Below, piece by piece: positions 1-9,039 of a stretch of DNA of 9,039 nt. Position 1 is the stretch's first letter; every line of letters begins with the position of its first letter. The translations under genes were made by a program, and so were the position numbers. The notes below the pieces were generated by a model. It made no database searches and was not told the origin of the DNA. It worked only from the letters and a program-made list of their open reading frames with translations. The DNA lies in the NCBI GenBank assembly GCA_964565725.1, contig CAZMGA010000011.1, positions 12,842-21,880 on the forward strand, in the 5' to 3' direction. The stretch is from an uncultured archaeon (lineage in GTDB: Archaea > Iainarchaeota > Iainarchaeia > Iainarchaeales > 0-14-0-20-30-16).

Positions 1-573
1 GAAAGTGTTCAAAGTCATACTGGTAATTTAGCTGGTGATTACTCTATTTATAATGGAATATTTAATCAATTTAATATTGTGAGTGCGAACACAGTAAATG
101 AATTAGTAAATTTTTCTGCAATTTTATCTAAACCTAAAACAAAAAATATAACTATAATTACTAATGGCGGGGGATATGGTATATTATTATCTGATTATTT
201 TGAAGAATATAATATCCCTATTTTAGATTTTTCAGATAATTTAAAAAATGTTTTAAAGAAAAATTTACCTTTTGGAGTATCTGTTAAAAATCCTATAGAT
301 ATTATGGGAGATGCAAATACTGAAAGATATTTGACAGCTATAAATTTAACTAAACAAATATCAGATACCTATGTAATTATTTTATTAGGTCAAGTTTCTA
401 CAATTAATAAAGAAGAGGTTTTAAATCTTAAAAAAGGATTAGAAAAATTAAATAAAAATATATTTATTATTTCTACAATGGATGAATATACTAAAATATT
501 ACAAGAAAATTTTTTAGTTTATGAATTTCCAGAAGATTTAGCAAAATCTTTATCTAAAAATTTATTAAAATAA
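1..573 (+). CDS. ADP-forming acyl/acetyl-CoA synthetase-like CoA-binding protein, C-terminal part (5' end outside window)
   Basis: Frame 1 is open from base 1 (ESVQSHTGNLAGDYSIYNGIFNQFNIV...), so the GTG at 79 in the ORF track is internal. The pattern SHTGxLAG ... ITNGGGYGIL..D ... NPIDIMGDA matches what I know of the flavodoxin-like ligase-CoA domain of NDP-forming acyl-CoA synthetase alpha subunits. Stop TAA at 571-573. Confidence 0.7.
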   Translation, partial: ESVQSHTGNLAGDYSIYNGIFNQFNIVSANTVNELVNFSAILSKPKTKNITIITNGGGYGILLSDYFEEYNIPILDFSDNLKNVLKKNLPFGVSVKNPIDIMGDANTERYLTAINLTKQISDTYVIILLGQVSTINKEEVLNLKKGLEKLNKNIFIISTMDEYTKILQENFLVYEFPEDLAKSLSKNLLK

Positions 574-585
574 AAATGGAAAAAT

Positions 586-1014
586 TTATTTTCCTTTATT
601 TGCTTGTATAGGTAAATTAGTATAATCTACACAAAAATTTATTTTATTTAAAGCTTTTTTTGTTAAATAGGATTTTAAAAATGCTTTAATTAAATCTTTT
701 TGTTTTGGTGTTGATTCTTCAGATATACATGCATTAATTGCCTTTCCTGCGTTTACAGAATTAATAGCTTTTAATACTTTAGCAATATCTTCTTCGGATT
801 TTCCAATACCTTTTGTTATATTTTCAATATATTCATCTACAGATTTTATATTTATTGATTTCTTTAAATATTGTTCAATTTTTGCATCAAAGCTTATACT
901 TACTGATGCTAAAAAACTAGCTATATCTATTGTTGGAACATTATTATCTATTTTAAACTTTTTTATTGCTTTCCAATCATTTGTATTTGCTGTAAAAATT
1001 ATTTCTTCTGTCAT
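586..1014 (-). CDS. hypothetical protein (142 aa), no family recognised
   Basis: Complete ORF. The minus-strand sequence upstream of the ATG reads AAGGTGATACT-ATG, a Shine-Dalgarno-like GGTGAT. Convergent with the preceding CDS, 12 nt apart. Confidence 0.6.
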   Translation of the reverse strand: MTEEIIFTANTNDWKAIKKFKIDNNVPTIDIASFLASVSISFDAKIEQYLKKSINIKSVDEYIENITKGIGKSEEDIAKVLKAINSVNAGKAINACISEESTPKQKDLIKAFLKSYLTKKALNKINFCVDYTNLPIQANKGK

Positions 1015-1149
1015 AGTATCACCTTAATTATTAAAATATAATATATAGCTTAGTATTTTTATATCTTTATATTATCTGATCATTTTTATTTAATAATTTA
1101 ATAAGAATAATTTAGAAATGTTTATATATAACATTTATATAGTCTATTT

Positions 1150-1314
1150 ATGGCTAGAAAAGTAAATTTATTGGGTAATTTAGGAAACTTAGGGCATTTT
1201 GGTCATTTAGGATTTTTAGGTTATTATTATACACCTCTTAGATGGCTTCACATATTATATATATTCTATCTTTTGTACTTTTTGTATTTTTACAAAATGA
1301 ATAAAAATAAATAA
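1150..1314 (+). CDS. possible small ORF (54 aa): MARKVNLLGNLGNLGHFGHLGFLGYYYTPLRWLHILYIFYLLYFLYFYKMNKNK
   Basis: ATG at 1150, TAA at 1312-1314 (hand translated). TATA-like TTTATATA at 1121-1128 sits about 25 nt upstream, compatible with a leaderless mRNA. There is no SD. The glycine/leucine repeat comes from the 9-bp tandem array. The ORF could be an accident of the repeat. Confidence 0.2.
   Translation: MARKVNLLGNLGNLGHFGHLGFLGYYYTPLRWLHILYIFYLLYFLYFYKMNKNK
1171..1224. repeat. six tandem 9-bp units, consensus TTAGGNNAT
   Basis: ttgggtaat / ttaggaaac / ttagggcat / tttggtcat / ttaggattt / ttaggttat, head to tail with no spacer. It is a G-containing island in an AT-rich intergenic region. Confidence 0.8.
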
Positions 1315-1354
1315 AAATTAGATTATAAAAATAAAATATTAAAGTAATAATAAA

Positions 1355-1573
1355 TTAGATTTTTTTAATAATTTCTTTTAGAGATTCTTTTTTTAAATCT
1401 CCAATTTTTATATCTCCTTTTTCTTTGATATATGTAAATACTTCTGCATTAGATGTAATAAAATAATATTTTTCTTTAATTCAAAACTAGAATCAGGGAA
1501 TCTTTGATCCCCAAAAACAAAAATCACAATTTAGATTACATTTATTTCCTATTAAATAATGAATTTCATTCAC
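1355..1573 (-). pseudogene. radical SAM enzyme remnant (N-terminal CX3CX2C motif fused in frame to a C-terminal tail, interrupted by three stops)
   Basis: Minus-strand translation starting directly after the gatE stop: VNEIHYLIGNKCNLNCDFCFWGSKIP*F*F*IKEKYYFITSNAEVFTYIKEKGDIKIGDLKKESLKEIIKKI*. GxKCNLxCxFC is the canonical radical-SAM 4Fe-4S cluster motif. Only about 72 codons remain, against more than 200 expected. In-frame TGA/TAG/TGA lie at the junction. Confidence 0.55.
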
Positions 1574-3415
1574 TTATTTCACTTCATTTATTTTTTTTTC
1601 TAAGTATTGAGATAATTGTTTCATATCTGGTTTTATTTTATTTTCTGTTAATGTTTTCATTATTGTTCCAAACATTGCATTAATTGGTGAATGATGGTTT
1701 TTAATAAAGTCTTTATTTTCTTTTAAAATATTATCTATTATTTTTTTACTATTTTCATCTAATTCTGACTTTTGTAATGTGTTTAAAATTTCTTCTTTTG
1801 TTTTTCCAGATTCAAAATCTTTTATAGCTTTAGAAAAATCCTTTCTTGTTATTTTTTTTTCTTTTTCAGCATTTAATATCCATAAATATTTATTTAAATT
1901 TACTTTTTCTGGTAAAGCCATAAAAAAATCTGCTAAGCTTAAAGGATTATATTTTTCAATATATTTTGTAAATTGTTTTGCATAATTAGTTTGAGATATA
2001 TGCTCTGATATTTGTTGATTTAATCCATATTTTTTATAAATTTCAATTCTTTCATTATACCATAAAGGTAAATTATTTTTAATATCTAAAACTTCTTTTT
2101 TAGTAATATATCTTAAAGGTGTATCTGTTTCGGGATACATTCTTTCTGATCCTGCTAAAGGTCTAGAATATTCGGTTGTACCATCATTTAAAGGGTTTCT
2201 TGTTTCTTTTATTACACCTTCAAATAATTTTAATGCTCTTTCAAAAGCAATTTTTAATGCTCTTTCCGCTTCTTTTTGTTCTTCTATAACTATTACAAAT
2301 AAATCATTTTCATTTGCATTTAATTTTTTATTAATTTCTTTTATATTATCTAAAGTAAAGCCATATTTTGGTAATTCATCTGTATGGAATAGTCCTTTTG
2401 CTTTAGTTTGAACTTTTACATATCCTGATATTTCTGAACCTACTCTTTTTCCAGGCATAGTTTCTTTACCAAATAATCCTTTATAACCTTTTAATAATAT
2501 TGCTAATGCCTTTTGATTTTTTTTAATTGCTTCTTTTAATTTTTCATTTTCTGTTTTTAATATTATATCTGAAACATCATATATTTTAAATTCTTGATTT
2601 TTATCTACATTTTTATTTAAATAATTTTTAACTTCTATTAATGCTAATTGTCTTTTAACTTCATTTTCTACATATGTTTCAATTAAATCTAAATATTGTA
2701 CACCTTTTATTTCTATTCTGGCTCCTTCTTTAATTGATATATTTACATCTTGTCTTATTGAGCCTAATCCTCTTTTTGCATTTCCTGTTATTCTAAATAA
2801 TTCCCCAATTTTTTTTGCACATTCTTTAACTTCTTCAGGTGTTTCTAAATCTGGTTTTGTAGTGAACTCAATTAAAGGAATTCCTAATCTTTCTAATGCA
2901 TATTCTACTTTATTATTTGTATTATTTATTATTTGAGATGCATCTTCTTCTAAACAGATACTTGCAATACCTATATTTTTATTATAAATATTTAAAAATC
3001 CATTTTGTGCAATTAAGGAAGTTCTTTGAAACCCAGAAGTATTTGATCCATCAATAACCATTTTTCTCATAATAAATACAGTATCAAAAATTTCTGAATT
3101 TGTTTTTAATGCAACTTCTAAAGTAGTTTTTAAAGCTTCTTCATTTATGTTTTGTGGAGGTTCTTCATCCAATTCAACTAAACAAATTTTATTCTTGTGT
3201 GCGTTATAAAAATAAGTTCTGCCTTTTTTATATTCTTGTAATGCTGTTTTATCAAATTCTCCTTTTTCTGAAGCTACAGGTCTTAATTTTCTATTAATTT
3301 CAAATTCCCCTAAATCCTCATATATTTCAGAGTTACAATTACAAAATAATTTTTTTGTATTTAATTGTTGATGGCATTCTAAACCCGCTTTAAACCCTAA
3401 TTCTTTATAATTCAT
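1574..3415 (-). CDS. gatE: Glu-tRNA(Gln) amidotransferase subunit E (archaeal GatE)
   Basis: 613-aa ORF. The N-terminus MNYKELGFKAGLECHQQLNTKKLFCNC..., the overall length and the GatB/E-type core plus helical C-terminal tail match GatE as I know it. SD-like GTGAT lies just upstream of the ATG on the minus strand. Confidence 0.92.
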   Translation of the reverse strand: MNYKELGFKAGLECHQQLNTKKLFCNCNSEIYEDLGEFEINRKLRPVASEKGEFDKTALQEYKKGRTYFYNAHKNKICLVELDEEPPQNINEEALKTTLEVALKTNSEIFDTVFIMRKMVIDGSNTSGFQRTSLIAQNGFLNIYNKNIGIASICLEEDASQIINNTNNKVEYALERLGIPLIEFTTKPDLETPEEVKECAKKIGELFRITGNAKRGLGSIRQDVNISIKEGARIEIKGVQYLDLIETYVENEVKRQLALIEVKNYLNKNVDKNQEFKIYDVSDIILKTENEKLKEAIKKNQKALAILLKGYKGLFGKETMPGKRVGSEISGYVKVQTKAKGLFHTDELPKYGFTLDNIKEINKKLNANENDLFVIVIEEQKEAERALKIAFERALKLFEGVIKETRNPLNDGTTEYSRPLAGSERMYPETDTPLRYITKKEVLDIKNNLPLWYNERIEIYKKYGLNQQISEHISQTNYAKQFTKYIEKYNPLSLADFFMALPEKVNLNKYLWILNAEKEKKITRKDFSKAIKDFESGKTKEEILNTLQKSELDENSKKIIDNILKENKDFIKNHHSPINAMFGTIMKTLTENKIKPDMKQLSQYLEKKINEVK

Positions 3416-3486
3416 TTAATCACTATACTAAATATTTATATATTATTATCATTTAACTTATATAAATATATCTTATGGGTGAAATT

Positions 3487-3753
3487 ATGGATAAAATTAA
3501 TTTGTCATATTTATTAATTGGAATAATATGTAGTTTATTTATTTTACTAATAATCGTGTTGATTATTTACTTTGTAAAAGTTTATAATTATAACAAAAAT
3601 AAGCCTAGGAGAAAATATTTAGTAAAAGATGAGGAAAAACACACTTGGCAAGGTTTTGAAACTCAAGATGAAGTAAAAGTAAAGTATAAGCCTAAAAAAT
3701 ATAAAGTTAGAGAATATGAAGTTAAATCTCCTAAATATAAAGGTAGTAAATAA
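3487..3753 (+). CDS. small membrane protein, one N-terminal TM helix and a Lys/Tyr-rich tail (88 aa from the second ATG)
   Basis: The ORF track starts at 3475, but GGGTGA (3477-3482) is an SD-like motif 4 nt before the ATG at 3487. MDKINLSYLLIGIICSLFILLIIVLIIYFV is a clear TM segment. The tail is KVKYKPKKYKVREYEVKSPKYKGSK. This ORF fills an otherwise 340-nt gap between gatE and the HAD gene. Confidence 0.5.
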   Translation: MDKINLSYLLIGIICSLFILLIIVLIIYFVKVYNYNKNKPRRKYLVKDEEKHTWQGFETQDEVKVKYKPKKYKVREYEVKSPKYKGSK

Positions 3754-4365
3754 TTACTTTTTTAGATATTTTTCCAATTGTTTAAAAGAAGTAATTCTTT
3801 CTTTTACATTTTTATATTCGTTTTTTCTATCTATTAATAATGCATTCATACCTGCGTTTTTTGCGCCTATATAATCATTTTCGTAATGATTCCCTATAAA
3901 TAAGATCTCATTAGGTTTTAGATTTAATTTTTTAATTGCCTTTTCAAATATTTTTTTATCTGGTTTTTTTAATTCTTCTTCATAGGAATAAATAACAAAA
4001 TCAAATATTTTTTTATATCCCCAATTGTTAATAATTTCTTTTGTAACAAATGAGCAATTACTTATTATTCCATATTTATAATCTTTCATTAATGGCAATA
4101 TATATTCGAAATCAGAGAATTCAACATAATTTGTTTTTGTATGTTTATTCATTAATATTTTTAGCTTTTTTAATTTCATAGCTCCGCAGGTTTGTTTAAA
4201 ATAATTATAAAATTCATCTAAATTAGTATTAGTTATCATTATTTTTTCAATAAAACTTTCACCCAGGTTTTGTTTAATAAACTTCATTAGGTTATCATGT
4301 GTTTTATTGCTTTTATTTCTCAATATAGTATCCCATATATCAAATACAATTGCTTTAATAACCAT
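3754..4365 (-). CDS. HAD-superfamily hydrolase (subfamily IA-like)
   Basis: N-terminal VFDIWDTIL (motif I-like), ISNCS (motif II Ser), a KPD lysine and FIGNHYENDYIGAKNAGM (acidic motif IV). The 203-aa size is typical. Confidence 0.85.
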   Translation of the reverse strand: MVIKAIVFDIWDTILRNKSNKTHDNLMKFIKQNLGESFIEKIMITNTNLDEFYNYFKQTCGAMKLKKLKILMNKHTKTNYVEFSDFEYILPLMKDYKYGIISNCSFVTKEIINNWGYKKIFDFVIYSYEEELKKPDKKIFEKAIKKLNLKPNEILFIGNHYENDYIGAKNAGMNALLIDRKNEYKNVKERITSFKQLEKYLKK

Positions 4366-4383
4366 AATATATATACTCTTTAA

Positions 4384-4497
4384 GATATAAAAATCTTTTT
4401 ATCACTTTTCAGTATAATTCAAATATTCCCTTTATTTAGTATAATAGCAATAAGTACTTTGTTTTGTGTATTGTTCAGAAAGAAGAATAAGATTTAA
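4384..4497 (+). repeat. module copy A: degenerate 'motif-TM-basic-stop' coding remnant (…IFLSLFSIIQIFPLFSIIAISTLFCVLFRKKNKI*)
   Basis: The core 4426-4497 aligns with copies B and C. The frame is open from 4384, but no ATG/GTG/TTG precedes the helix. Relative to B/C it has an 18-nt in-frame deletion and a 27-nt in-frame internal duplication (ttcagtataattcaaata / tttagtataatagcaata). The ancestral stop position is now AAG, with a 2-codon extension. Confidence 0.7.
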
Positions 4498-4539
4498 ATA
4501 AACTATAGTGCTATTTATATTATGATAAAAAGAATTTTT

Positions 4540-4580
4540 AACTAGTTTTCATTGACCCCTAAACACCTTAGGGACTAGTT
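4540..4580. other. two-tier hairpin (type I), followed by a T5 tract
   Basis: Outer stem aactagt (4540-4546) pairs with actagtt (4574-4580), 7 bp. Inner stem ccctaa (4557-4562) pairs with ttaggg (4568-4573), 6 bp, with a 5-nt loop. There is a 10-nt 5' bulge. GGCTTTTT lies at 4583-4590. It shares the arms GACCC(C)TAA ... CCTTA..GGACT with the hairpin at 6846-6913. Confidence 0.6.
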
Positions 4581-4636
4581 CAGGCTTTTTATACTATTTG
4601 TATGTCTGGCATTTTAACTTTAAAAGGAGAGTTAAT

Positions 4637-6166
4637 ATGTCGTTATTAATTATAAAGAATTTAAGTAAAGACTTTTCTCACAAAGTAATCTTTGAGAATG
4701 AGGAATTAATAATAAATGAAACTGATAAGATTGGTTTAATTGGTAAGAATGGCTCGGGTAAAACCACTTTAATAAATATCATCTTAGGTAAAGAATCATT
4801 TTTTGGTAATTTGCAAAAATTAGATTTAAAGATAAGTGTTTTAGAACAACAATCTTTAAATGCAAATCAAAAAGTAATTGATTTCTTAAATATAGATTTG
4901 TATTCTGATAATTCAGATTTAATATCTAAAGTTTTGGAATTATTTAATAAATTTGCATTAAGTTCAGAATTATTTGATCAAAATTTGTTAACTTTATCTG
5001 GTGGAGAAAAAACTAAATTAGCTTTAATAAAAATAATGCTTCAAGATCCAGATTTGTTAATATTGGATGAGCCCACAAATCATTTAGATTTTTTAGGTTT
5101 ATATATTTTACAAAAATTCTTAAAAGATTTTTCTAAAGCTTACATTTTAGTTTCCCACAATAGAGATTTTTTAGATAACAATACAAATAAAATTGTTGAA
5201 ATTGAAAATACTAAACTATTATCTTATGAAGGAAATTATTCTGAATTTAAAGAAAAAAAACAAAAAGAATTTGAACTTAAAATTGAATTATATGAAAATA
5301 ATTTAAAAGAGCACAAAAGATTAAAAAAAAGTGCAATCCAGAAATTAGAATGGTCTCAAAATAATTGTGCTATTAAGAAACCTAAACCACATGATAAATT
5401 AAGATTTCAATCTTATAATAGGTTAAATAAAGGTTATGATTTTAATGCAATAAATGCAAAAATAATATTTGACAGAGCTAATGCTATTGATTTGTCTAAG
5501 CCTTTTGAAGATACTGAAAGATTAAATATTGAAATTTTGCCATTTGAAAAAAGCTATAATGAAGTTTTGGTTTTGCAAAAAATTTCTAAAACAATTAATA
5601 AAGAATTGTTTAGCAATTTGAATTTAGAAATTAAAAGACTCGAAAAAGTTTTCATAGTAGGGAGAAATGGTTCTGGTAAGACAACTTTATTAAATATTAT
5701 TTGTGGCAAAGATAAAGATTTTTCTGGAAATTTAATTTTAGGTGAAAATGTAAATGTTGGTTATATTACTCAAGACAAATCTTTCTTGCATAAAGATTGC
5801 AATATTTTAGAATATTTATTAGAGCAACATAAAGATCTGGATGAATTTATTTTAAGAGATTATTTGGCTAAATTTTTATTTAAGGGTAATGATATAAACA
5901 AAAAGCTAAACATTCTTTCAGGGGGAGAAATAATGCGTTTAGATTTGTTAGATAAATTACTTTACAAATGTAATTTCTTAATTTTAGATGAGCCAACAAA
6001 TAATTTAGATATTGCCACTATTGAATTATTAGAACAAGCTTTAATAGATTTTCAAGGCACTATATTATGCATATCTCACGATAAGCAATTAATAAAAAAT
6101 GTTGCAACAATAGTTTACGAGTTAACTGAAAAAGGATTGAGGGCATTAAACAAAGAATTTATTTAA
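4637..6166 (+). CDS. ABC-F-type soluble twin-NBD ATPase
   Basis: Two complete NBDs: Walker A GKNGSGKT and GRNGSGKT; signatures LSGGEKTK and LSGGEIMR; Walker [13 protein letters not shown] and [12 protein letters not shown]; H-loops VSHNRDF and ISHDKQL. A Lys-rich helical interdomain linker is present and there is no TM domain. GGAGAG (4626-4631) precedes the ATG at 4637, so the track's 4598 start is probably too long. Confidence 0.9.
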
Positions 6167-6206
6167 TAACATTTTTATATTTGTATTGTAGTATTATGTT
6201 ATAGTT

Positions 6207-6839
6207 TTGGATACTTTTTCTAATGTAAAATATATTTTCATTGATGAAAGTGGTGATTTAGGGCAGTATGGTTCAGAATATTTTACTATAGTTGCATTAA
6301 CAACTAGTGATATTAAGAAAATAGGAAGAATAATAAAAAAAGTCAGACAACGAATAATGAAAAAGAAACTTAAGAATTTATCTGAAATTAAAGCTAATAA
6401 TTCAAACGAAATAATAAGAAAATATGTTTTAAATAGTTTAATTAATTGTAATTGTTTAATTTCTTCAATAGTGATTCCGAAATCAAAAATAAAACAAGAA
6501 TTATATGGCTCTAAAAATAAATTATATAATTATCTTTGTGGAGTTTTATTTAGTCATATTGATTTAAATGTTTCTTATTTAGAAATAATTATTGATAAAA
6601 AAGATAGTAATAAATTATTACGAGAGGACTTCAATCATTATATTTCAGAAAAAATAAAAGAGAAAGTAAAAATTAAATTTAGTATTACTCATTTAGATTC
6701 TCAAGCATCTAATGAGTTGCAAGTAGTTGATTTTGTTGCATGGGCAATAAATAGAAAATATTCTCATAAAGACGATACTTATTATAATATAATCGAGAAA
6801 CTAATTTGTAATAAAGATAAACAAGAAATTTGGAAATAA
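6207..6839 (+). CDS. DUF3800-family protein
   Basis: N-terminal YIFIDESGD and C-terminal ELQVVDFVAWAI are the two acidic motifs I associate with DUF3800. The only canonical start before the conserved N-terminus is TTG at 6207, with an in-frame TAG at 6189-6191. It lies 40 nt downstream of the ABC-F stop on the same strand. Confidence 0.78.
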   Translation: MDTFSNVKYIFIDESGDLGQYGSEYFTIVALTTSDIKKIGRIIKKVRQRIMKKKLKNLSEIKANNSNEIIRKYVLNSLINCNCLISSIVIPKSKIKQELYGSKNKLYNYLCGVLFSHIDLNVSYLEIIIDKKDSNKLLREDFNHYISEKIKEKVKIKFSITHLDSQASNELQVVDFVAWAINRKYSHKDDTYYNIIEKLICNKDKQEIWK

Positions 6840-6845
6840 GAATAA

Positions 6846-6913
6846 GTGTGGACCCTAAGCAAGACCAATTCGTGCACCATCCGGTACACTCCTTACTAAG
6901 GACTTACCCACAT
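6846..6913. other. long imperfect three-tier hairpin (type I, expanded), relatively GC-rich
   Basis: Basal stem 6847-6851 pairs with 6908-6912 (tgtgg/ccaca). Middle stem 6853-6863 pairs with 6892-6901 (9 pairs, 2 C/A mismatches, 1 bulged A). Apical stem 6872-6878 pairs with 6883-6889 (6 pairs, 1 C/A mismatch), loop atcc. It starts 7 nt after the DUF3800 stop. Confidence 0.6.
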
Positions 6914-6975
6914 ATATAATTATATCTATGATATATAAATATTTTTTGATAATTATTTATAAAGATTAAACATAA

Positions 6976-7059
6976 TCCCCATTCTGGATAGTATTCTCAT
7001 CATTAGGAATAATTGCAGTAAGCACTGGGTTTTGTGTGTTGTTGAGAAAGAGAAATTAG
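6976..7059 (+). repeat. module copy B: 'motif-TM-basic-stop' coding remnant (SPFWIVFSSLGIIAVSTGFCVLLRKRN*) without a start codon
   Basis: About 78% nt identity to copy C over 27 codons by hand alignment. In-frame TAA at 6967-6969 and 6973-6975 lie immediately upstream, and no start codon is present. Stop TAG at 7057-7059. Confidence 0.75.
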
Positions 7060-7063
7060 ATTT

Positions 7064-7100
7064 TAGTATAATGGAAATTAGTATAACCACCATTATACTA
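7064..7100. other. perfect 11-bp-stem hairpin containing a direct repeat of TTAGTATAA
   Basis: tagtataatgg (7064-7074) pairs with ccattatacta (7090-7100), with a 15-nt loop. ttagtataa occurs at 7063-7071 and 7078-7086. agtataat also occurs twice inside module A (4411-4418, 4439-4446). Confidence 0.6.
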
Positions 7101-7115
7101 ATTCTGGTTATAATG

Positions 7116-7179
7116 AATTTGTCCGGAAAAAGCGGACAAAATGTGTCAATATTGTCCGGAAAAAACGGAAGAAATTTCC
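7116..7179. other. hairpin (type II) plus a degenerate direct copy
   Basis: tttgtccg (7118-7125) pairs with cggacaaa (7133-7140), 8 bp, loop gaaaaag. The 20-nt direct repeat ttgtccggaaaaagcggaca (7119-7138) versus ttgtccggaaaaaacggaag (7152-7171) matches at 17/20. A small ggaa/ttcc hairpin lies at 7167-7179. The right arm GACAAAATGT recurs at 8634-8643 and 8666-8675. Confidence 0.6.
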
Positions 7180-7190
7180 TTTGTATGTAG

Positions 7191-7245
7191 ATTCCTTACG
7201 GAATTCCGTAAAGAATACTATGATTTTCTTACGTAAAAGCGTAAG
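7191..7245. promoter_or_regulatory. two CTTACG-type inverted repeats immediately upstream of a TATA-like box
   Basis: A 26-bp palindrome attccttacggaattccgtaaagaat (7191-7216) has a perfect 16-bp core at 7196-7211 and one C/A mismatch. A hairpin cttacg-taaaag-cgtaag lies at 7228-7245. TATATATAT at 7247-7255 is centred about 27 nt before the ATG at 7278, suggesting a leaderless mRNA. Confidence 0.45.
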
Positions 7246-7277
7246 GTATATATATTTCTTATAATACTAATTATAAT

Positions 7278-8579
7278 ATGCCCAATATAAAAGATGACAT
7301 TAAGAAAATAATTTTAAAATATTCTGATTTGATTCCAAAGGAAGTTTTTAAAAGAGAATTAATATTGTCAGAATTAAAATTTGATAAGGCAAACGTAATA
7401 ATTGGGCCAAGAAGATCTGGTAAAACCTATTATTTATATTATATTATAAATGATATTAAATCAAATGAAAAGTTTATATATATTAATTTTGAAGATAATT
7501 TATTACCAAAACTTGAAAGACAAGATCTAAATTTGATATTAGAATGTTCAAAAGAATTATATGGCAATAATTTGATATTTTTCTTTGATGAAATTCAGAA
7601 TATCGATAATTGGGAAAATTTTATAATTTCATTATTAAATGAACATTATAAGGTATATGTTACAGGCTCAAATTCAAAATTGTTAAGTAAAGATATTGCA
7701 ACAGCTTTAAGAGGAAAATCATTATCTTATTTACTTTTGCCTTTTTCTTTTTCTGAAATAATATCTTATAAATTAGGAAAATTAGAAAAAGGTTGGGAAA
7801 ATAGCAAAACAGCATATGATATTAAGAAAGTATATAATGATTATTTTTTGTATGGTGGATTTCCAGAAGTATTTTTGTCTGAGAATTTAGATTTAAAAAA
7901 CAAATTAATAAATAATTATTTTGAATCGGTTTTGTATAAAGATTTGATTGATAGATTGAAGATAAAAAACATTAAATTAGTTGAAATAATTATGAAATAT
8001 TTATTAAATTTATTTGGCAATAATTTTAGTATATCTGTTTTTGAGAATTATTTAAAGTCAAATAAGATAGCTTATAGTTTAGAAGATTTATATGCCATAT
8101 TATATAGTTTACAAGATGTATTTTTAGTTTATTATTTAAAAGAATATTCTAAATCTTATAAAAAAACAGAGGTATCAAAATCAAAAATATATTTATTTGA
8201 TTTGGGGTATATTAGATTTATTTCTAGAGAATCAGAAGATAATGGCAGAATATTGGAAAATTTAGTATTTATTGAATTGTATAGGCGTTTAGATTGTATT
8301 AATGTTCCAAAAGTATTTTATTTTAAATCTAAGAAAGATCAAGAATGTGACTTTGTTTTAGAAGATAAAGGCAAGATTGTTCAGGCAATTCAAGTGACCT
8401 ATAGTTTAGAAACTAAAAATAAAGATAGAGAAATAGATGGTTTATTGTCTGCAATGGAGTTTTTTAGTTTAAAAGAAGGTATAATCTTAACAAATGATCA
8501 AGAAGAAACTTTTGAGATAAATAACAAGACAATACATGTTTTACCTGTTTGGAAATGGTTATTACAAACTAAGAAGTAA
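7278..8579 (+). CDS. AAA+ ATPase of the AAA_14/DUF4143 (COG1373-like) family with a C-terminal PD-(D/E)xK-like module
   Basis: Walker A GPRRSGKT, Walker B IFFFDEIQ and a DUF4143-like middle region. The C-terminal ENLVFIELYR...QECDFVLEDKGKIVQAIQVTYS resembles the restriction-endonuclease-like E-x-D...(I/V)Q/EVK tail typical of this family. Confidence 0.87.
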   Translation: MPNIKDDIKKIILKYSDLIPKEVFKRELILSELKFDKANVIIGPRRSGKTYYLYYIINDIKSNEKFIYINFEDNLLPKLERQDLNLILECSKELYGNNLIFFFDEIQNIDNWENFIISLLNEHYKVYVTGSNSKLLSKDIATALRGKSLSYLLLPFSFSEIISYKLGKLEKGWENSKTAYDIKKVYNDYFLYGGFPEVFLSENLDLKNKLINNYFESVLYKDLIDRLKIKNIKLVEIIMKYLLNLFGNNFSISVFENYLKSNKIAYSLEDLYAILYSLQDVFLVYYLKEYSKSYKKTEVSKSKIYLFDLGYIRFISRESEDNGRILENLVFIELYRRLDCINVPKVFYFKSKKDQECDFVLEDKGKIVQAIQVTYSLETKNKDREIDGLLSAMEFFSLKEGIILTNDQEETFEINNKTIHVLPVWKWLLQTKK

Positions 8580-8584
8580 TTTCT

Positions 8585-8600
8585 GGGCTTTTTCCTTTTT
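8585..8600 (+). terminator. oligo-T tracts after the ATPase gene (archaeal-style terminator candidate)
   Basis: gggcTTTTTccTTTTT begins 6 nt after the stop. It is similar to caggcTTTTT at 4581-4590. Confidence 0.4.
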
Positions 8601-8614
8601 CTTCACAACTTCTT

Positions 8615-8675
8615 GCATTTCGTTCAATAATTGAACAAAATGTCCTACATTTCGTCTAATCTTTAGACAAAATGT
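8615..8675. other. two tandem 12-bp-stem hairpins (type II) able to refold into a central alternative hairpin
   Basis: Segments are 1 = 8616-8627, 2 = 8631-8642, 3 = 8647-8658 and 4 = 8664-8675. Pairings 1:2 and 3:4 each give 11 Watson-Crick pairs plus one C/A mismatch at the same position (8621/8637 and 8653/8669). Segments 2:3 can pair instead (aaatgt-cct-acattt plus 2 more pairs). Confidence 0.65.
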
Positions 8676-8764
8676 ACTGCAACCCTTTCTGGATAGTTAG
8701 TGCATCAATATTAATAATTGCAGTGAGTATTGGATTTTGTGTGTTGTTAAGGAAAAGAGATTAA
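8672..8764 (+). CDS. module copy C: intact 30-aa ORF MYCNPFWIVSASILIIAVSIGFCVLLRKRD (small single-TM peptide)
   Basis: ATG at 8672-8674, TAA at 8762-8764 (hand indexed). Divergence from copy B is biased to third codon positions, which argues that this frame is or was translated. There is no SD. The ATG lies inside hairpin segment 4. Confidence 0.45.
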   Translation: MYCNPFWIVSASILIIAVSIGFCVLLRKRD

Positions 8765-8806
8765 TCCTATTTAAACTTTTTCGTTCTACATATTATTAGT
8801 GAGTTT

Positions 8807-9039
8807 ATGGAAGATAAATTTAATTTTGATTTAAAGCCAATAGTAAAGGAATACGAAAAGTTTTTCGGTTTTAAATTAAATAAGCAACCTAAGTCTATAT
8901 TTTGTTATAATAGAAAAGAATATGATAAACTATTTGGTTGCAAAACACAATCTTGGAGTGCACAATTTGCTACTAAAGATATGATTGTAAGTATTCATCC
9001 TACTTTATGGGAAAAATATACAAATCATGCAAATCCTTC
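8807..9039 (+). CDS. hypothetical protein, N-terminal 77 codons (3' end outside window)
   Basis: From the ATG at 8807 the frame stays open to the window end: MEDKFNFDLKPIVKEYEKFFGFKLNKQPKSIFCYNRKEYDKLFGCKTQSWSAQFATKDMIVSIHPTLWEKYTNHANP. TATA-like CTATTTAAAC at 8767-8776 lies about 30 nt upstream. No family recognised. Confidence 0.55.
   Translation, partial: MEDKFNFDLKPIVKEYEKFFGFKLNKQPKSIFCYNRKEYDKLFGCKTQSWSAQFATKDMIVSIHPTLWEKYTNHANP

What the first reader, a model, noticed from the sequence alone, without database searches (positions are those of the whole stretch)
4384..8764. Three orphan 'motif-TM-RKR-stop' modules diverging like protein-coding sequence
Copies A (core 4426-4497), B (6976-7059) and C (8681-8764) are homologous and co-oriented.

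In one frame they read:
- A: …FPLFSIIAISTLFCVLFRKKNKI*
- B: SPFWIVFSSLGIIAVSTGFCVLLRKRN*
- C: NPFWIVSASILIIAVSIGFCVLLRKRD*

Hand alignment of B against C over 27 codons gives 18 nt differences: 10 at third positions, 5 at first and 3 at second. Eight codon changes are synonymous (P, V, V, S, G, L, R, K). The stop falls at the same codon but is TAG in one copy and TAA in the other. In the 3' 16 codons, 7 of 9 differences are third-position. That is a purifying-selection signature.

Against that, B has two in-frame stops just upstream and no start codon, and A has no start either. A also carries in-frame indels (an 18-nt deletion and a 27-nt duplication). Only C begins with ATG.

The tripartite layout of short motif, helix and basic cluster at the extreme C-terminus is the architecture of sortase, exosortase and archaeosortase sorting signals, and also of type I toxin peptides. 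Here, though, there is no protein body in front of it.
Basis: seen in the sequence. Interest (0 to 1): 0.8.

Follow-up and report, generated by a model that had tools for sequence, protein, structure and literature searches.

The report
Orphan transporter-gene ends flanking mobile cassettes
The three short 'helix plus basic tail' modules are leftover copies of the last about 30 codons of a sodium:solute symporter gene, and they sit at the joints of an array of swappable defence-type gene cassettes in a tiny (DPANN-like) archaeon, most likely as integration-site scars: a known kind of structure in a little-studied group.

Summary
A (4423-4497), B (6967-7059) and C (8672-8764) form the top direct-repeat family in the window: 79% and 67% identity against a background of 29±5%. 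They diverge mainly at synonymous sites (pN/pS 0-0.3).

The interpretation does not hold. The modules are not sorting signals or toxin peptides. They are homologous to the last transmembrane helix, basic tail and stop codon of a roughly 480-aa sodium:solute symporter (PF00474) that is common in DPANN archaea and CPR bacteria.

In a Diapherotrites MAG the intact gene is followed by 2.7 kb of inserted genes and then an orphan copy of its own end. This is the attL/attR picture known from e14 and icd. Orphans in three lineages all begin within about 10 codons of each other. They separate cassettes that differ between strains and carry defence-type cargo (PDC-S01 ATPase, mad3-like ATPase, Fic, HsdM).

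Best explanation, confidence 0.62: tandem site-specific integration into the gene's 3' end, where each element carries a replacement end, so the protein-like divergence is inherited.

Three points remain unexplained:
- No recombinase was found in any cassette.
- No intact symporter gene is present in this lineage.
- The breakpoints are not all clean.

It is a new member of a known kind and of moderate interest.

The parts
4423..4497 (+). Module A. The most decayed orphan copy of the symporter 3' end (IFPLFSIIAISTLFCVLFRKKNKI*). It lacks the NPFWIV part, carries an internal duplication just upstream (4402-4425), and its stop has shifted two codons downstream.
   Evidence: tblastn with the L010 tail, E=6e-5. 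nhmmer 4432-4483, E=1e-6. 67% ungapped identity to B. Open frame 4384-4497 has no usable start.
4498..6966 (+). Cassette 1. It holds an ABC-type double ATPase (4637-6166), DUF3800 (6207-6839) and a GC-rich structured element (6846-6913). The whole cassette is absent in haplotype L003.
   Evidence: Pfam. PADLOC mad3, 6e-46. L003 joins window 4340-4411 to 6988 onward. Fold of 6840-6920 on the minus strand: -26.1 kcal/mol, z -2.9.
6967..7059 (+). Module B. An orphan copy (SPFWIVFSSLGIIAVSTGFCVLLRKRN*). Its 5' end retains an out-of-frame remnant of the 'N-I-I' codons, with two in-frame stops upstream.
   Evidence: B versus D: 8 synonymous and 0 non-synonymous differences.
7060..7277 (+). Conserved left end of cassette 2. 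It contains a 12-bp-stem hairpin (7063-7101), two direct repeats TTGTCCGGAAAAARCGGA (7119-7136 and 7152-7169, 33-bp spacing) and further palindromes up to 7260.
   Evidence: Folds give z -3.1 and z -4.6/-4.8. The repeat pair has 0 matches in 200 shuffles. Window ~7121-7172 is 81% identical to DNA downstream of the L022 orphan, although the cargo differs.
7278..8579 (+). Cargo of cassette 2: an AAA_14 + DUF4143 ATPase.
   Evidence: Pfam. PADLOC PDC-S01, 8e-98. The protein is identical in L001-L004.
8596..8671 (+). Conserved right end of cassette 2. It contains two direct repeats CATTTCRTYNAATNNTTRRACAAA (8616-8639 and 8648-8671, 32-bp spacing) that abut module C.
   Evidence: 0 matches in 200 shuffles. 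83% identity over 75 nt to the DNA upstream of the L022 partial module, also present upstream of D in L002.
8672..8764 (+). Module C. An orphan copy (MYCNPFWIVSASILIIAVSIGFCVLLRKRD*). Its ATG is fortuitous.
   Evidence: The same ATG is out of frame in allele D.
8765..9039 (+). Start of a third cassette, with an ORF from 8807 that runs off the window. No family match.
   Evidence: The sister contig L002 has entirely different DNA after its module D.

Best explanation
A, B and C are detached copies of the final about 27-34 codons of a sodium:solute symporter (SSF/SSS, PF00474) gene: the loop, the last transmembrane helix, the basic tail and the stop codon. This gene is widespread in DPANN archaea and CPR bacteria.

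They most likely act, or once acted, as attachment (att) sites. The proposed sequence of events is:
1. Mobile DNA integrates by site-specific recombination into the 3' end of the symporter gene.
2. The element brings its own version of that end, so the gene stays intact.
3. The previous end is displaced downstream of the insert.
4. Re-use of the site stacks elements in tandem, leaving one orphan end at each joint.

Because every copy spent its history as the working end of a symporter gene, in the host or as the element's replacement end, the copies differ mostly at synonymous sites.

In this window the array holds at least two cassettes with defence-type cargo and no recombinase of their own. 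This resembles cis-mobilizable elements, which rely on a recombinase supplied in trans. The symporter body itself is missing.

Status of each step:
- Shown: homology to the symporter end; a full gene plus insert plus orphan in a relative; sharp common module borders; strain-to-strain cassette differences.
- Inferred: site-specific recombination; a recombinase acting in trans; the loss of the symporter body.
For: 1. Parentage of the module.
- The module peptide is the extreme C-terminus of 471-533-codon open frames in the nine loci not cut short (one, L010, at a contig start; two others open for only 218 and 324 codons), out of 12. The two of these tested (L010, L011) are SSF/TIGR00813 members.
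- The same helix motif (WIVGASLFIIAISTxFC) ends nearly all of the 120 database homologues.
- Orphans only ever cover residues 412-447 of the 447 codons of the L010 protein that the contig holds.

2. A complete example.
- In L010 the intact gene ends at 1346, followed by an AsnC-HTH gene and a radical-SAM gene.
- An orphan copy then lies at 4079-4174, and the homology continues 8-11 nt past the stop.
- The two copies have pS 0.62 and pN 0.14. That is too much synonymous divergence for a duplication made in place, so one copy probably came from another lineage.

3. Sharp borders.
- Homology starts 80-90 nt before the end of the stop codon and ends 0-10 nt after it. This holds in all five pairs compared across three lineages.

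4. Cassette polymorphism at the modules.
- L003 lacks module A and cassette 1.
- L002 has module D followed by different downstream DNA.
- L024 and L022 differ upstream of the same module.
- L022/L024 and L023 diverge directly after GGGTTTTGTG inside a module.

5. Conserved cassette ends.
- The window's AAA_14 cassette and the Fic cassette of L022 share conserved ends with paired repeats at 32-33-bp spacing, although their cargo differs.

6. The island is younger than the core genome.
- Window versus L001 nucleotide identity is 96.7% and 93% for the cassettes, against 81-86% for GatE and its neighbours.

7. The symporter end is also the point of change in cleaner genomes.
- The L025 and L027 proteins are about 90% identical except for the last 30 residues (13/30), and the DNA downstream is unrelated.

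8. Known precedents.
- e14 integrates in icd, supplies the gene's 3' end and leaves a 163-bp pseudo-icd copy, icdC (PMC6379469; PMC13626634).
- CIMEs keep their att sites but have no recombination genes (PMC7563491).
Against: - No integrase, resolvase or casposase domain was found in any cassette ORF scanned, across the window, L002, L010 and L022-L024. The only transposase-like gene is a TnpB in L022, about 1.7 kb from a module.
- No intact symporter gene exists in the window. None was found in the contigs of its clade that were tested for it (L001-L006, L032-L035). In the closest relative with a readable flank (L032), a different gene sits next to HAD and there is no module in the ~410 nt of flank the contig holds.
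- Not all haplotype breakpoints lie in the modules. The window and L002 diverge at 8582, just after the AAA_14 stop. C and D differ, although the cassette upstream of them is 99.75% identical.
- Cassette 1 does not share the conserved ends of cassette 2.
- No circular or extrachromosomal form was found in viral, phage or plasmid collections.
- Only three of the four possible half-module combinations are seen, so recombination inside the module is suggested but not proven.
Confidence: 0.62

Rival explanations
1. A recombination hotspot with no dedicated recombinase. The symporter-end modules and the conserved cassette ends are simply shared flanking homology. General homologous or illegitimate recombination between strains uses that homology to swap, add or delete accessory genes.
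For: - Several haplotype breakpoints lie outside the modules: 8582 in the window versus L002, and about 85 nt upstream of the module in L024 versus L022.
- Sequence downstream of the L022/L023/L024 partial module is mosaic and re-converges.
- No recombinase was found.
- The island is more similar between strains than the core genome.
Against: - Copies within one genome are only 67-79% identical over about 85 nt, which is poor substrate for homologous recombination.
- This rival does not explain how a detached gene end arises in the first place. It also does not explain why the L010 orphan and the gene's own end differ by pS 0.62.
- The common sharp 5' limit across lineages fits a defined site better.
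Confidence: 0.18
2. Decayed paralogues. The locus once held several tandem full-length symporter genes. Their bodies were deleted or overwritten, leaving only the ends.
For: - A, B and the L022 partial copy show decay: in-frame stops, a 5-nt and an 18-nt deletion, and frameshifts.
- L003 may retain about 40 decayed codons.
Against: - Independent deletions would leave random 5' limits. In fact six of the eight copies start within about 10 codons of each other, and no other symporter fragment is present anywhere in the loci.
- DPANN relatives carry a single symporter gene at such loci.
Confidence: 0.07
3. One reading: the modules are expressed on their own as small membrane peptides (type I toxin-like), or are sorting signals awaiting fusion to a protein.
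For: - C is a 30-codon ATG ORF.
- The peptides are hydrophobic with a basic tail.
- A scores 15.8 bits against the Loki-CTERM model.
Against: - A and B lack start codons.
- C's ATG is out of frame in allele D.
- All sorting-signal scores are below their cut-offs.
- The peptide is homologous to a transporter's last helix, which fully accounts for its layout and its selection signature.
Confidence: 0.03
4. An integron-like array, in which the modules are attC-type structure-specific recombination sites.
For: - The array consists of co-oriented one- or two-gene cassettes, each followed by a repeat less than 4 kb from the next.
- Integrons exist in archaea, including DPANN groups (PMC9668308).
Against: - As single-stranded DNA the modules fold no better than shuffled sequence, on either strand: z from -0.47 to +1.24.
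- There are no R''/L''-L'/R' inverted repeats and no IntI.
- The repeat is derived from coding sequence.
Confidence: 0.03

Closest known systems
e14 / phage 21 integration into the 3' end of icd in E. coli, leaving the icdC pseudogene
   Same: - An element integrates in the 3' end of a protein-coding gene and supplies a replacement end.
- The displaced original end remains as a short orphan direct repeat on the far side of the insert.
- The two copies differ mainly by synonymous or conservative changes (PMC6379469; PMC13626634).
- L010 shows the same layout.
   Different: - Here the target is a symporter gene in DPANN archaea.
- The inserts are 1.6-2.7-kb cassettes with no integrase.
- Several are stacked in tandem.
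- In the window lineage the target gene body is absent.
[quoted passage not shown]
   Same: The host is archaeal, the target is the 3' end of a protein-coding gene, and the same site is re-used to give arrays (PMC6563490).
   Different: - Those elements carry an integrase or casposase.
- Their att sites or target-site duplications are short; only a minority exceed 25 bp.
- Here the repeat is about 85-100 nt and diverged, and no recombinase is seen.
Cis-mobilizable elements (CIMEs) and accretion at the 3' end of fda or tRNA-Lys in streptococci
   Same: Elements are bounded by att sites, lack recombination genes, and are stacked in tandem with cargo that includes defence functions (PMC7563491).
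   Different: - CIMEs are bacterial, linked to conjugative elements, and defined relative to a known ICE integrase.
- In streptococci the most decayed elements lie farthest from the target gene.
- Here no partner element or integrase is known, and the most decayed copy (A) is at the left border.
Integron cassette arrays (including archaeal integrons)
   Same: There are tandem, mostly co-oriented small cassettes separated by a repeated recombination-site-like sequence. Most archaeal examples lack an adjacent integrase, the so-called CALINs (PMC9668308).
   Different: attC sites are non-coding imperfect palindromes recognised as folded single strands. The modules here do not fold and are derived from coding sequence.

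Membership tests
C-terminal end of SSF/SSS sodium:solute symporter genes (PF00474 / TIGR00813) | Sequence homology of the module to the last helix and tail of full-length family members | tested here: met
   - 12 loci have the peptide at the end of the open frame, nine of them 471-533 codons long.
- The full proteins match SSF at 1e-30 and TIGR00813 at 8e-44, which is below NCBIfam's curated cut-off (150.3 bits against 184).
- tblastn of the L010 protein hits window B, C and A at residues 412-447 only.
- An nhmmer profile links orphans and full genes.
att-site duplication by an integrative element in the 3' end of a protein-coding gene | Direct repeats of the gene's 3' end flank the inserted DNA | tested here: met
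   This holds for window A/B/C, L002 B/D, the two L010 copies and the two L022 copies.
att-site duplication by an integrative element in the 3' end of a protein-coding gene | The upstream repeat completes an intact target gene | tested here: inconclusive
   Met in L010, where the full gene ends at 1346 and the orphan lies at 4079-4174. Not met in the window, L001-L004 or L022-L024, where no gene body is present.
att-site duplication by an integrative element in the 3' end of a protein-coding gene | Occupied and empty sites differ exactly at the repeats | tested here: inconclusive
   - L003 lacks A and cassette 1, but its junction is not a simple A/B hybrid.
- L022 and L023 diverge inside a module.
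- Other breakpoints lie outside modules.
- L025-L031 have symporter genes with no orphans.
att-site duplication by an integrative element in the 3' end of a protein-coding gene | A site-specific recombinase is encoded in the element or in the genome | tested here: not met
   No recombinase domain was found in any cassette ORF. The rest of the genome could not be examined, because the window's own contig is not retrievable.
att-site duplication by an integrative element in the 3' end of a protein-coding gene | Excision to a circular form and re-integration | not testable with these tools
   This needs raw reads or an experiment. No extrachromosomal copy was found in viral, phage or plasmid collections.
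Cis-mobilizable element (CIME) | Bounded by att sites, without recombination or transfer genes, and derived from or mobilised by a related autonomous element | tested here: inconclusive
   The first two features fit. No related autonomous element has been identified.
Integron attC site | An imperfect palindrome that folds as a single strand, with an IntI tyrosine recombinase | tested here: not met
   Single-stranded DNA folds of A, B and C on both strands give z from -0.47 to +1.24. No IntI is present in the window. Criteria are taken from PMC9668308.
Sortase / exosortase / archaeosortase C-terminal sorting signal | A signature motif, helix and basic cluster at the end of a secreted protein that matches a curated CTERM model | tested here: not met
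   The best NCBIfam hits are below their cut-offs: CoaP_CTERM 13.3 against 35, and Loki-CTERM 15.8 against 19.9. Homologous full-length proteins are polytopic transporters, not secreted proteins.
Sortase / exosortase / archaeosortase C-terminal sorting signal | A cognate sorting enzyme in the genome | not testable with these tools
   Only 9 kb of this genome plus about 14 kb of sister contigs are available, and none of it encodes such an enzyme.
Type I toxin or other small membrane peptide gene | A conserved start codon and an intact short ORF in each copy | tested here: not met
   A and B have no usable start, and C's ATG is out of frame in allele D.

The most novel reading that the evidence does not exclude
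The modules, together with the conserved cassette ends, may define a previously undescribed cassette system in DPANN archaea. The ends are paired repeats at 32-33-bp spacing, at 7119-7169 and 8616-8671. Single defence-type genes would be moved by a recombinase supplied in trans. The recombination site would be derived from, and still encode, the end of a symporter gene. Functionally this resembles an integron, but with a coding, non-hairpin site. Such a system could persist and shuffle even after the original target gene is lost.
Probability: 0.2. Interest if true: 0.65.

Novelty: new member of a known kind. Interest (0 to 1): 0.38.

Why it matters
Very little is known about how DPANN archaea, which have tiny and mostly uncultured genomes, acquire and exchange accessory and defence genes.

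This locus points to the 3' end of a widely shared symporter gene as an insertion hotspot. It explains why a non-genic sequence can look as if it is under purifying selection: the signature is inherited from its time as a working gene end.

It also provides concrete sequence markers for finding such islands and their missing recombinase in other genomes. These markers are the roughly 90-nt module and the two pairs of repeats at the cassette ends.

For genome scanning it is a useful caution. 'Orphan coding-like modules' at cassette joints are most simply integration scars, not new peptide genes.

Tried and rejected
- **tRNA and Rfam scans of the window:** no hits.
- **Protein word search with B and C concatenated:** 1 candidate, none scored.
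- **phmmer of the 30-aa C ORF against 1.84 billion representatives:** 0 hits at E<=0.001. Both this and the word search are underpowered for such a short helix, so they are not evidence of absence.
- **Viral collection:**
  - The module DNA pattern gave three chance hits with no flanking homology.
  - The peptide pattern gave nothing.
  - The cassette-end patterns gave nothing.
- **JGI metagenomes:** a strict DNA pattern gave nothing. The peptide pattern then gave L022-L024.
- **Phage and plasmid BLAST of B plus the cassette's left end:** no match.
- **Retrieving the window's own 21.9-kb contig to read beyond 9039:** the contig is not on record.
- **GatE-anchored relatives, used to see whether a symporter gene sits next to HAD:** it does not. 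L032 has an unrelated gene there, and L033-L035 have a different gene order.
- **attC-like folding:** rejected.
- **Reverse-strand ORFs across B and D:** their peptides are not conserved, whereas the + frame is.
- **Read-through or frameshift from the upstream genes into the modules:** rejected, because 90-140 nt with multiple stops intervene.
- **L010 versus L027:** the inserted radical-SAM and HTH genes are not orthologous between the two, so there is no simple inversion story.

Full report
**Setting**

The window is very AT-rich, about 22% G+C, and archaeal. It encodes GatE (1574-3415, minus strand) and a DUF2666 protein. The nearest named GatE is from Candidatus Iainarchaeum at 49% identity, with a cluster of unnamed relatives at 54-72%. 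The organism is therefore a DPANN-like archaeon.

The gene order around the finding is:
- a HAD hydrolase (3754-4365, minus strand)
- module A
- an ABC-type double ATPase (4637-6166) and DUF3800 (6207-6839)
- module B
- an AAA_14/DUF4143 ATPase (7278-8579)
- module C
- an ORF from 8807 that runs off the window

The modules therefore sit exactly between gene cassettes.

**Checking the observation**

The three modules are the top direct-repeat family in the window.
- B-C identity is 79% and A-B is 67%. The background for B against every other window position is 29±5%, with a maximum of 48%.
- A DNA profile built from module copies finds exactly three sites in the window, all on the plus strand.
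- The quoted translations are correct.

My recount of B against C gives 19 differences, at codon positions 1/2/3 = 6/4/9, rather than 18. The same eight codons are synonymous, and the stops are TAG against TAA.

Nei-Gojobori counts confirm the coding-like divergence:
- B-C has pS 0.53 and pN 0.12 (p=0.004).
- B against a fourth copy, D, from a sister contig has 8 synonymous and 0 non-synonymous differences (p=1e-5).
- Across the 21 pairs of seven copies, pN/pS is 0-0.4 (0-0.3 for all but one pair), with pS up to 0.96.

A and B have no usable start codon. C has an ATG. The modules are reproducible: A and/or B recur in four independent assemblies; no other contig covers C.

**What the module is**

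A peptide-pattern scan of one genome per prokaryotic species returned 12 loci. In all 12 the module peptide is the extreme C-terminus of the open frame; nine of the frames run to 471-533 codons (one, L010, is cut by a contig start; two others are open for only 218 and 324 codons). One example is the Diapherotrites MAG L010, ending ...GNIINNPFWIVFSSLGIIGVSTLFCILLRKRN*. Several CPR bacteria end ...GNIIDKPVWIVGASLFIIAVSTGFCLAMPKK.

The two of these proteins tested (L010 and L011) match the sodium:solute symporter family: PF00474 at 1e-30, and TIGR00813 at 8e-44, which is below NCBIfam's curated cut-off. A database search with the L010 protein gave 860 relatives at E<1e-60. Nearly all of the best 120 end with the same helix motif.

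When the L010 protein is searched back against the window and its sister contigs, only residues 412-447 of the 447 codons the contig holds are ever matched. The 'motif, helix, basic cluster, stop' layout is therefore the last loop, last transmembrane helix and cytoplasmic tail of a polytopic transporter. This helix is strongly conserved across the family, which by itself explains the synonymous-biased divergence.

Curated sorting-signal models score below their thresholds. C's ATG is out of frame in the allelic copy D, because the sequence upstream of NPFW differs by 16 nt between them. The sorting-signal and toxin-peptide readings are therefore not supported.

**How detached gene ends arise**

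L010 shows the complete structure.
- The intact symporter gene ends at 1346.
- An AsnC-type regulator gene and a radical-SAM gene follow.
- At 4079-4174 there is an orphan copy (NIINNPFWIVGASVGIIAVSTGFCVLLRKRD*).
- The orphan's homology to the gene's own end begins at the N-I-I-N-N-P codons and continues through TAATTCTCTTT after the stop.

This is the arrangement produced when an element integrates into the 3' end of a gene while carrying a replacement end. Prophage e14 does this in the E. coli icd gene, leaving the 163-bp icdC pseudogene (PMC6379469; PMC13626634).

The two L010 copies differ by pS 0.62 but pN 0.14. A duplication made on the spot would start identical, and the orphan copy would then drift neutrally. 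Such divergence under protein-level constraint points instead to two ends that evolved in different lineages as working gene ends before being brought together.

**Evidence that the modules behave as a defined unit**

In every pairwise comparison, across three lineages, homology begins 80-90 nt before the end of the stop codon and stops 0-10 nt after it. Orphan 5' limits cluster at residues 412-421 of the parent protein in six of the eight copies. Random decay of full-length paralogues would not produce this.

Orphans occur in a third, unrelated low-GC lineage, L022-L024 from JGI metagenomes. A 44-codon open frame and a frameshifted partial copy flank a Fic/DOC gene there.

**Cassette variation**

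- In the same sequencing run that yields a contig identical to window 1-4369 (L005), another contig (L003) joins the HAD upstream region directly to module B. It lacks module A and cassette 1.
- L002 carries the same AAA_14 cassette at 99.75% identity, then an extra 100-codon ORF, a different module (D) and unrelated downstream DNA.
- L024 and L022 have different genes upstream of an identical module.
- L022/L024 and L023 are identical up to GGGTTTTGTG inside the partial module and diverge immediately after it. In L023 the downstream DNA leads into a type I restriction-modification methylase gene (HsdM_N, 7e-22).
- Between the window and L001, the cassettes are 93-96.7% identical while GatE and its neighbours are 81-86%. 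The island is therefore younger than, or exchanged independently of, the core genome.
- In two Iainarchaeum genomes without orphans, the symporter proteins are about 90% identical except for the last 30 residues (13/30), and the DNA downstream is unrelated. This again marks the gene end as the point of change.

**Cassette anatomy**

The DNA downstream of module B contains a hairpin at 7063-7101 and two TTGTCCGGAAAAARCGGA repeats, 33 bp apart, at 7119-7169. The DNA upstream of module C contains two CATTTCRTYNAATNNTTRRACAAA repeats, 32 bp apart, at 8616-8671.

Both regions are conserved, at 81% over 52 nt and 83% over 75 nt, at the corresponding positions around the Fic cassette of L022. This holds although the cargo gene and its orientation differ.

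If the cassette were circularised, these repeat pairs would flank the module on both sides, as arm-type sites flank the core of a complex attP. That reading is an inference. Cassette 1 does not share these ends.

The cargo matches candidate defence families:
- AAA_14/DUF4143 = PDC-S01 (8e-98)
- the ABC ATPase = mad3 (6e-46)
- Fic = SoFic/PDC-S04
- HsdM

**What does not fit**

- No recombinase domain was found in any cassette ORF of any locus.
- No intact symporter gene is present in the window. None was found in the contigs of its clade that were tested for it (L001-L006, L032-L035).
- In L032 (GatE 72% identical) a different gene abuts HAD. The island's left border, just after AAAAATCTTTTTAT upstream of HAD, is therefore fixed, but the target gene is not there.
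- Either the symporter body was deleted, or the array lives on without it. In favour of deletion, L003 keeps about 40 decayed codons and A keeps 23.
- Some breakpoints lie outside the modules. Only three of the four possible half-module combinations are seen, so crossover within the module is suggested rather than shown.
- The modules do not fold as single strands, with z from -0.47 to +1.24. They are therefore not integron attC sites, for which single-strand folding is the defining property (PMC9668308).

The closest functional analogy for recombinase-less, att-bounded, stacked elements is the bacterial cis-mobilizable element (PMC7563491).

**Verdict**

The sorting-signal and toxin interpretation is replaced by a well-supported identification: these are orphan 3' ends of a symporter gene at cassette junctions.

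The most likely mechanism is repeated site-specific integration with replacement of the gene end (confidence about 0.6). The recombinase and the fate of the target gene remain unresolved.

This is a new member of a known kind of structure in a poorly explored group, and of moderate interest. A more novel possibility is a trans-acting, integron-like cassette system that uses a coding-derived site. It cannot be excluded, and I put its probability at about 0.2.

Noticed in passing
window 3475-3753 (+): This 92-codon ORF is another 'C-terminal piece only'. It matches the transmembrane helix and lysine-rich tail (residues 610-695) of a 697-aa CARDB surface protein. That protein is intact at the same position in L001 (4309-6402) and L032 (1065-3158). 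The match is 42% identity, E=3e-14. The window haplotype has lost about 1.8 kb of this gene.
   Followed up: partly
window 1015-1573: About 560 nt of very AT-rich DNA lies between DUF2666 and GatE. It contains a 54-codon ORF (1150-1314, GNLGNLGHFGHLGFLG) flanked by a 43-nt imperfect inverted repeat (1050-1092 / 1308-1350). L001 and L032 have only 8 and 4 nt between these genes, so this looks like a small insertion.
   Followed up: no
window 6846-6913 (also L001 9570-9637): A GC-rich island sits in 22%-GC DNA at the right end of cassette 1. The minus strand folds to -26.1 kcal/mol (z -2.9). It is conserved in L001 with two substitutions. There is no tRNA or Rfam match, and its function is unknown.
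   Followed up: partly
window 7120-7260: A dense cluster of palindromes and hairpins lies upstream of the AAA_14 gene (z -4.6 on the plus strand, -4.8 on the minus strand, 0 of 200 shuffles as stable). Part of it is conserved in L022. It could be operator, terminator or recombination arm sites.
   Followed up: partly
L010 3-1346 versus L011 8543-10087: The symporter of a Diapherotrites archaeon and that of a MAG labelled only 'bacterium' are 58% identical over 476 residues. Many DPANN and CPR homologues are 60-66% identical to each other. This suggests transfer of the gene between the two groups of ultra-small organisms.
   Followed up: no
window versus L001 (whole length): Nucleotide identity rises from 81-86% in the core genes (GatE, CoA-ligase-like, DUF2666) to 93% (HAD plus cassette 1) and 96.7% (cassette 2). 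The AAA_14 protein is identical in four assemblies.
   Followed up: partly
L022 6773-7858 (-); L032 5594-6596: Other mobile or defence-type genes appear in related contigs. A TnpB (OrfB_IS605 / Cas12f1-like) gene lies 1.7 kb upstream of the L022 orphan. A nucleotidyltransferase-HEPN pair is inserted next to DUF2666 in L032.
   Followed up: no
L002 2981-3050 and L022 11044-11120: A conserved stretch with two perfect palindromes (GGTCGCAATTTGCGACC and a second one) directly follows the terminal module in L022. In L002 it is separated from module D by a 273-codon membrane-protein gene on the minus strand. This may be the original chromosomal flank of the site.
   Followed up: partly
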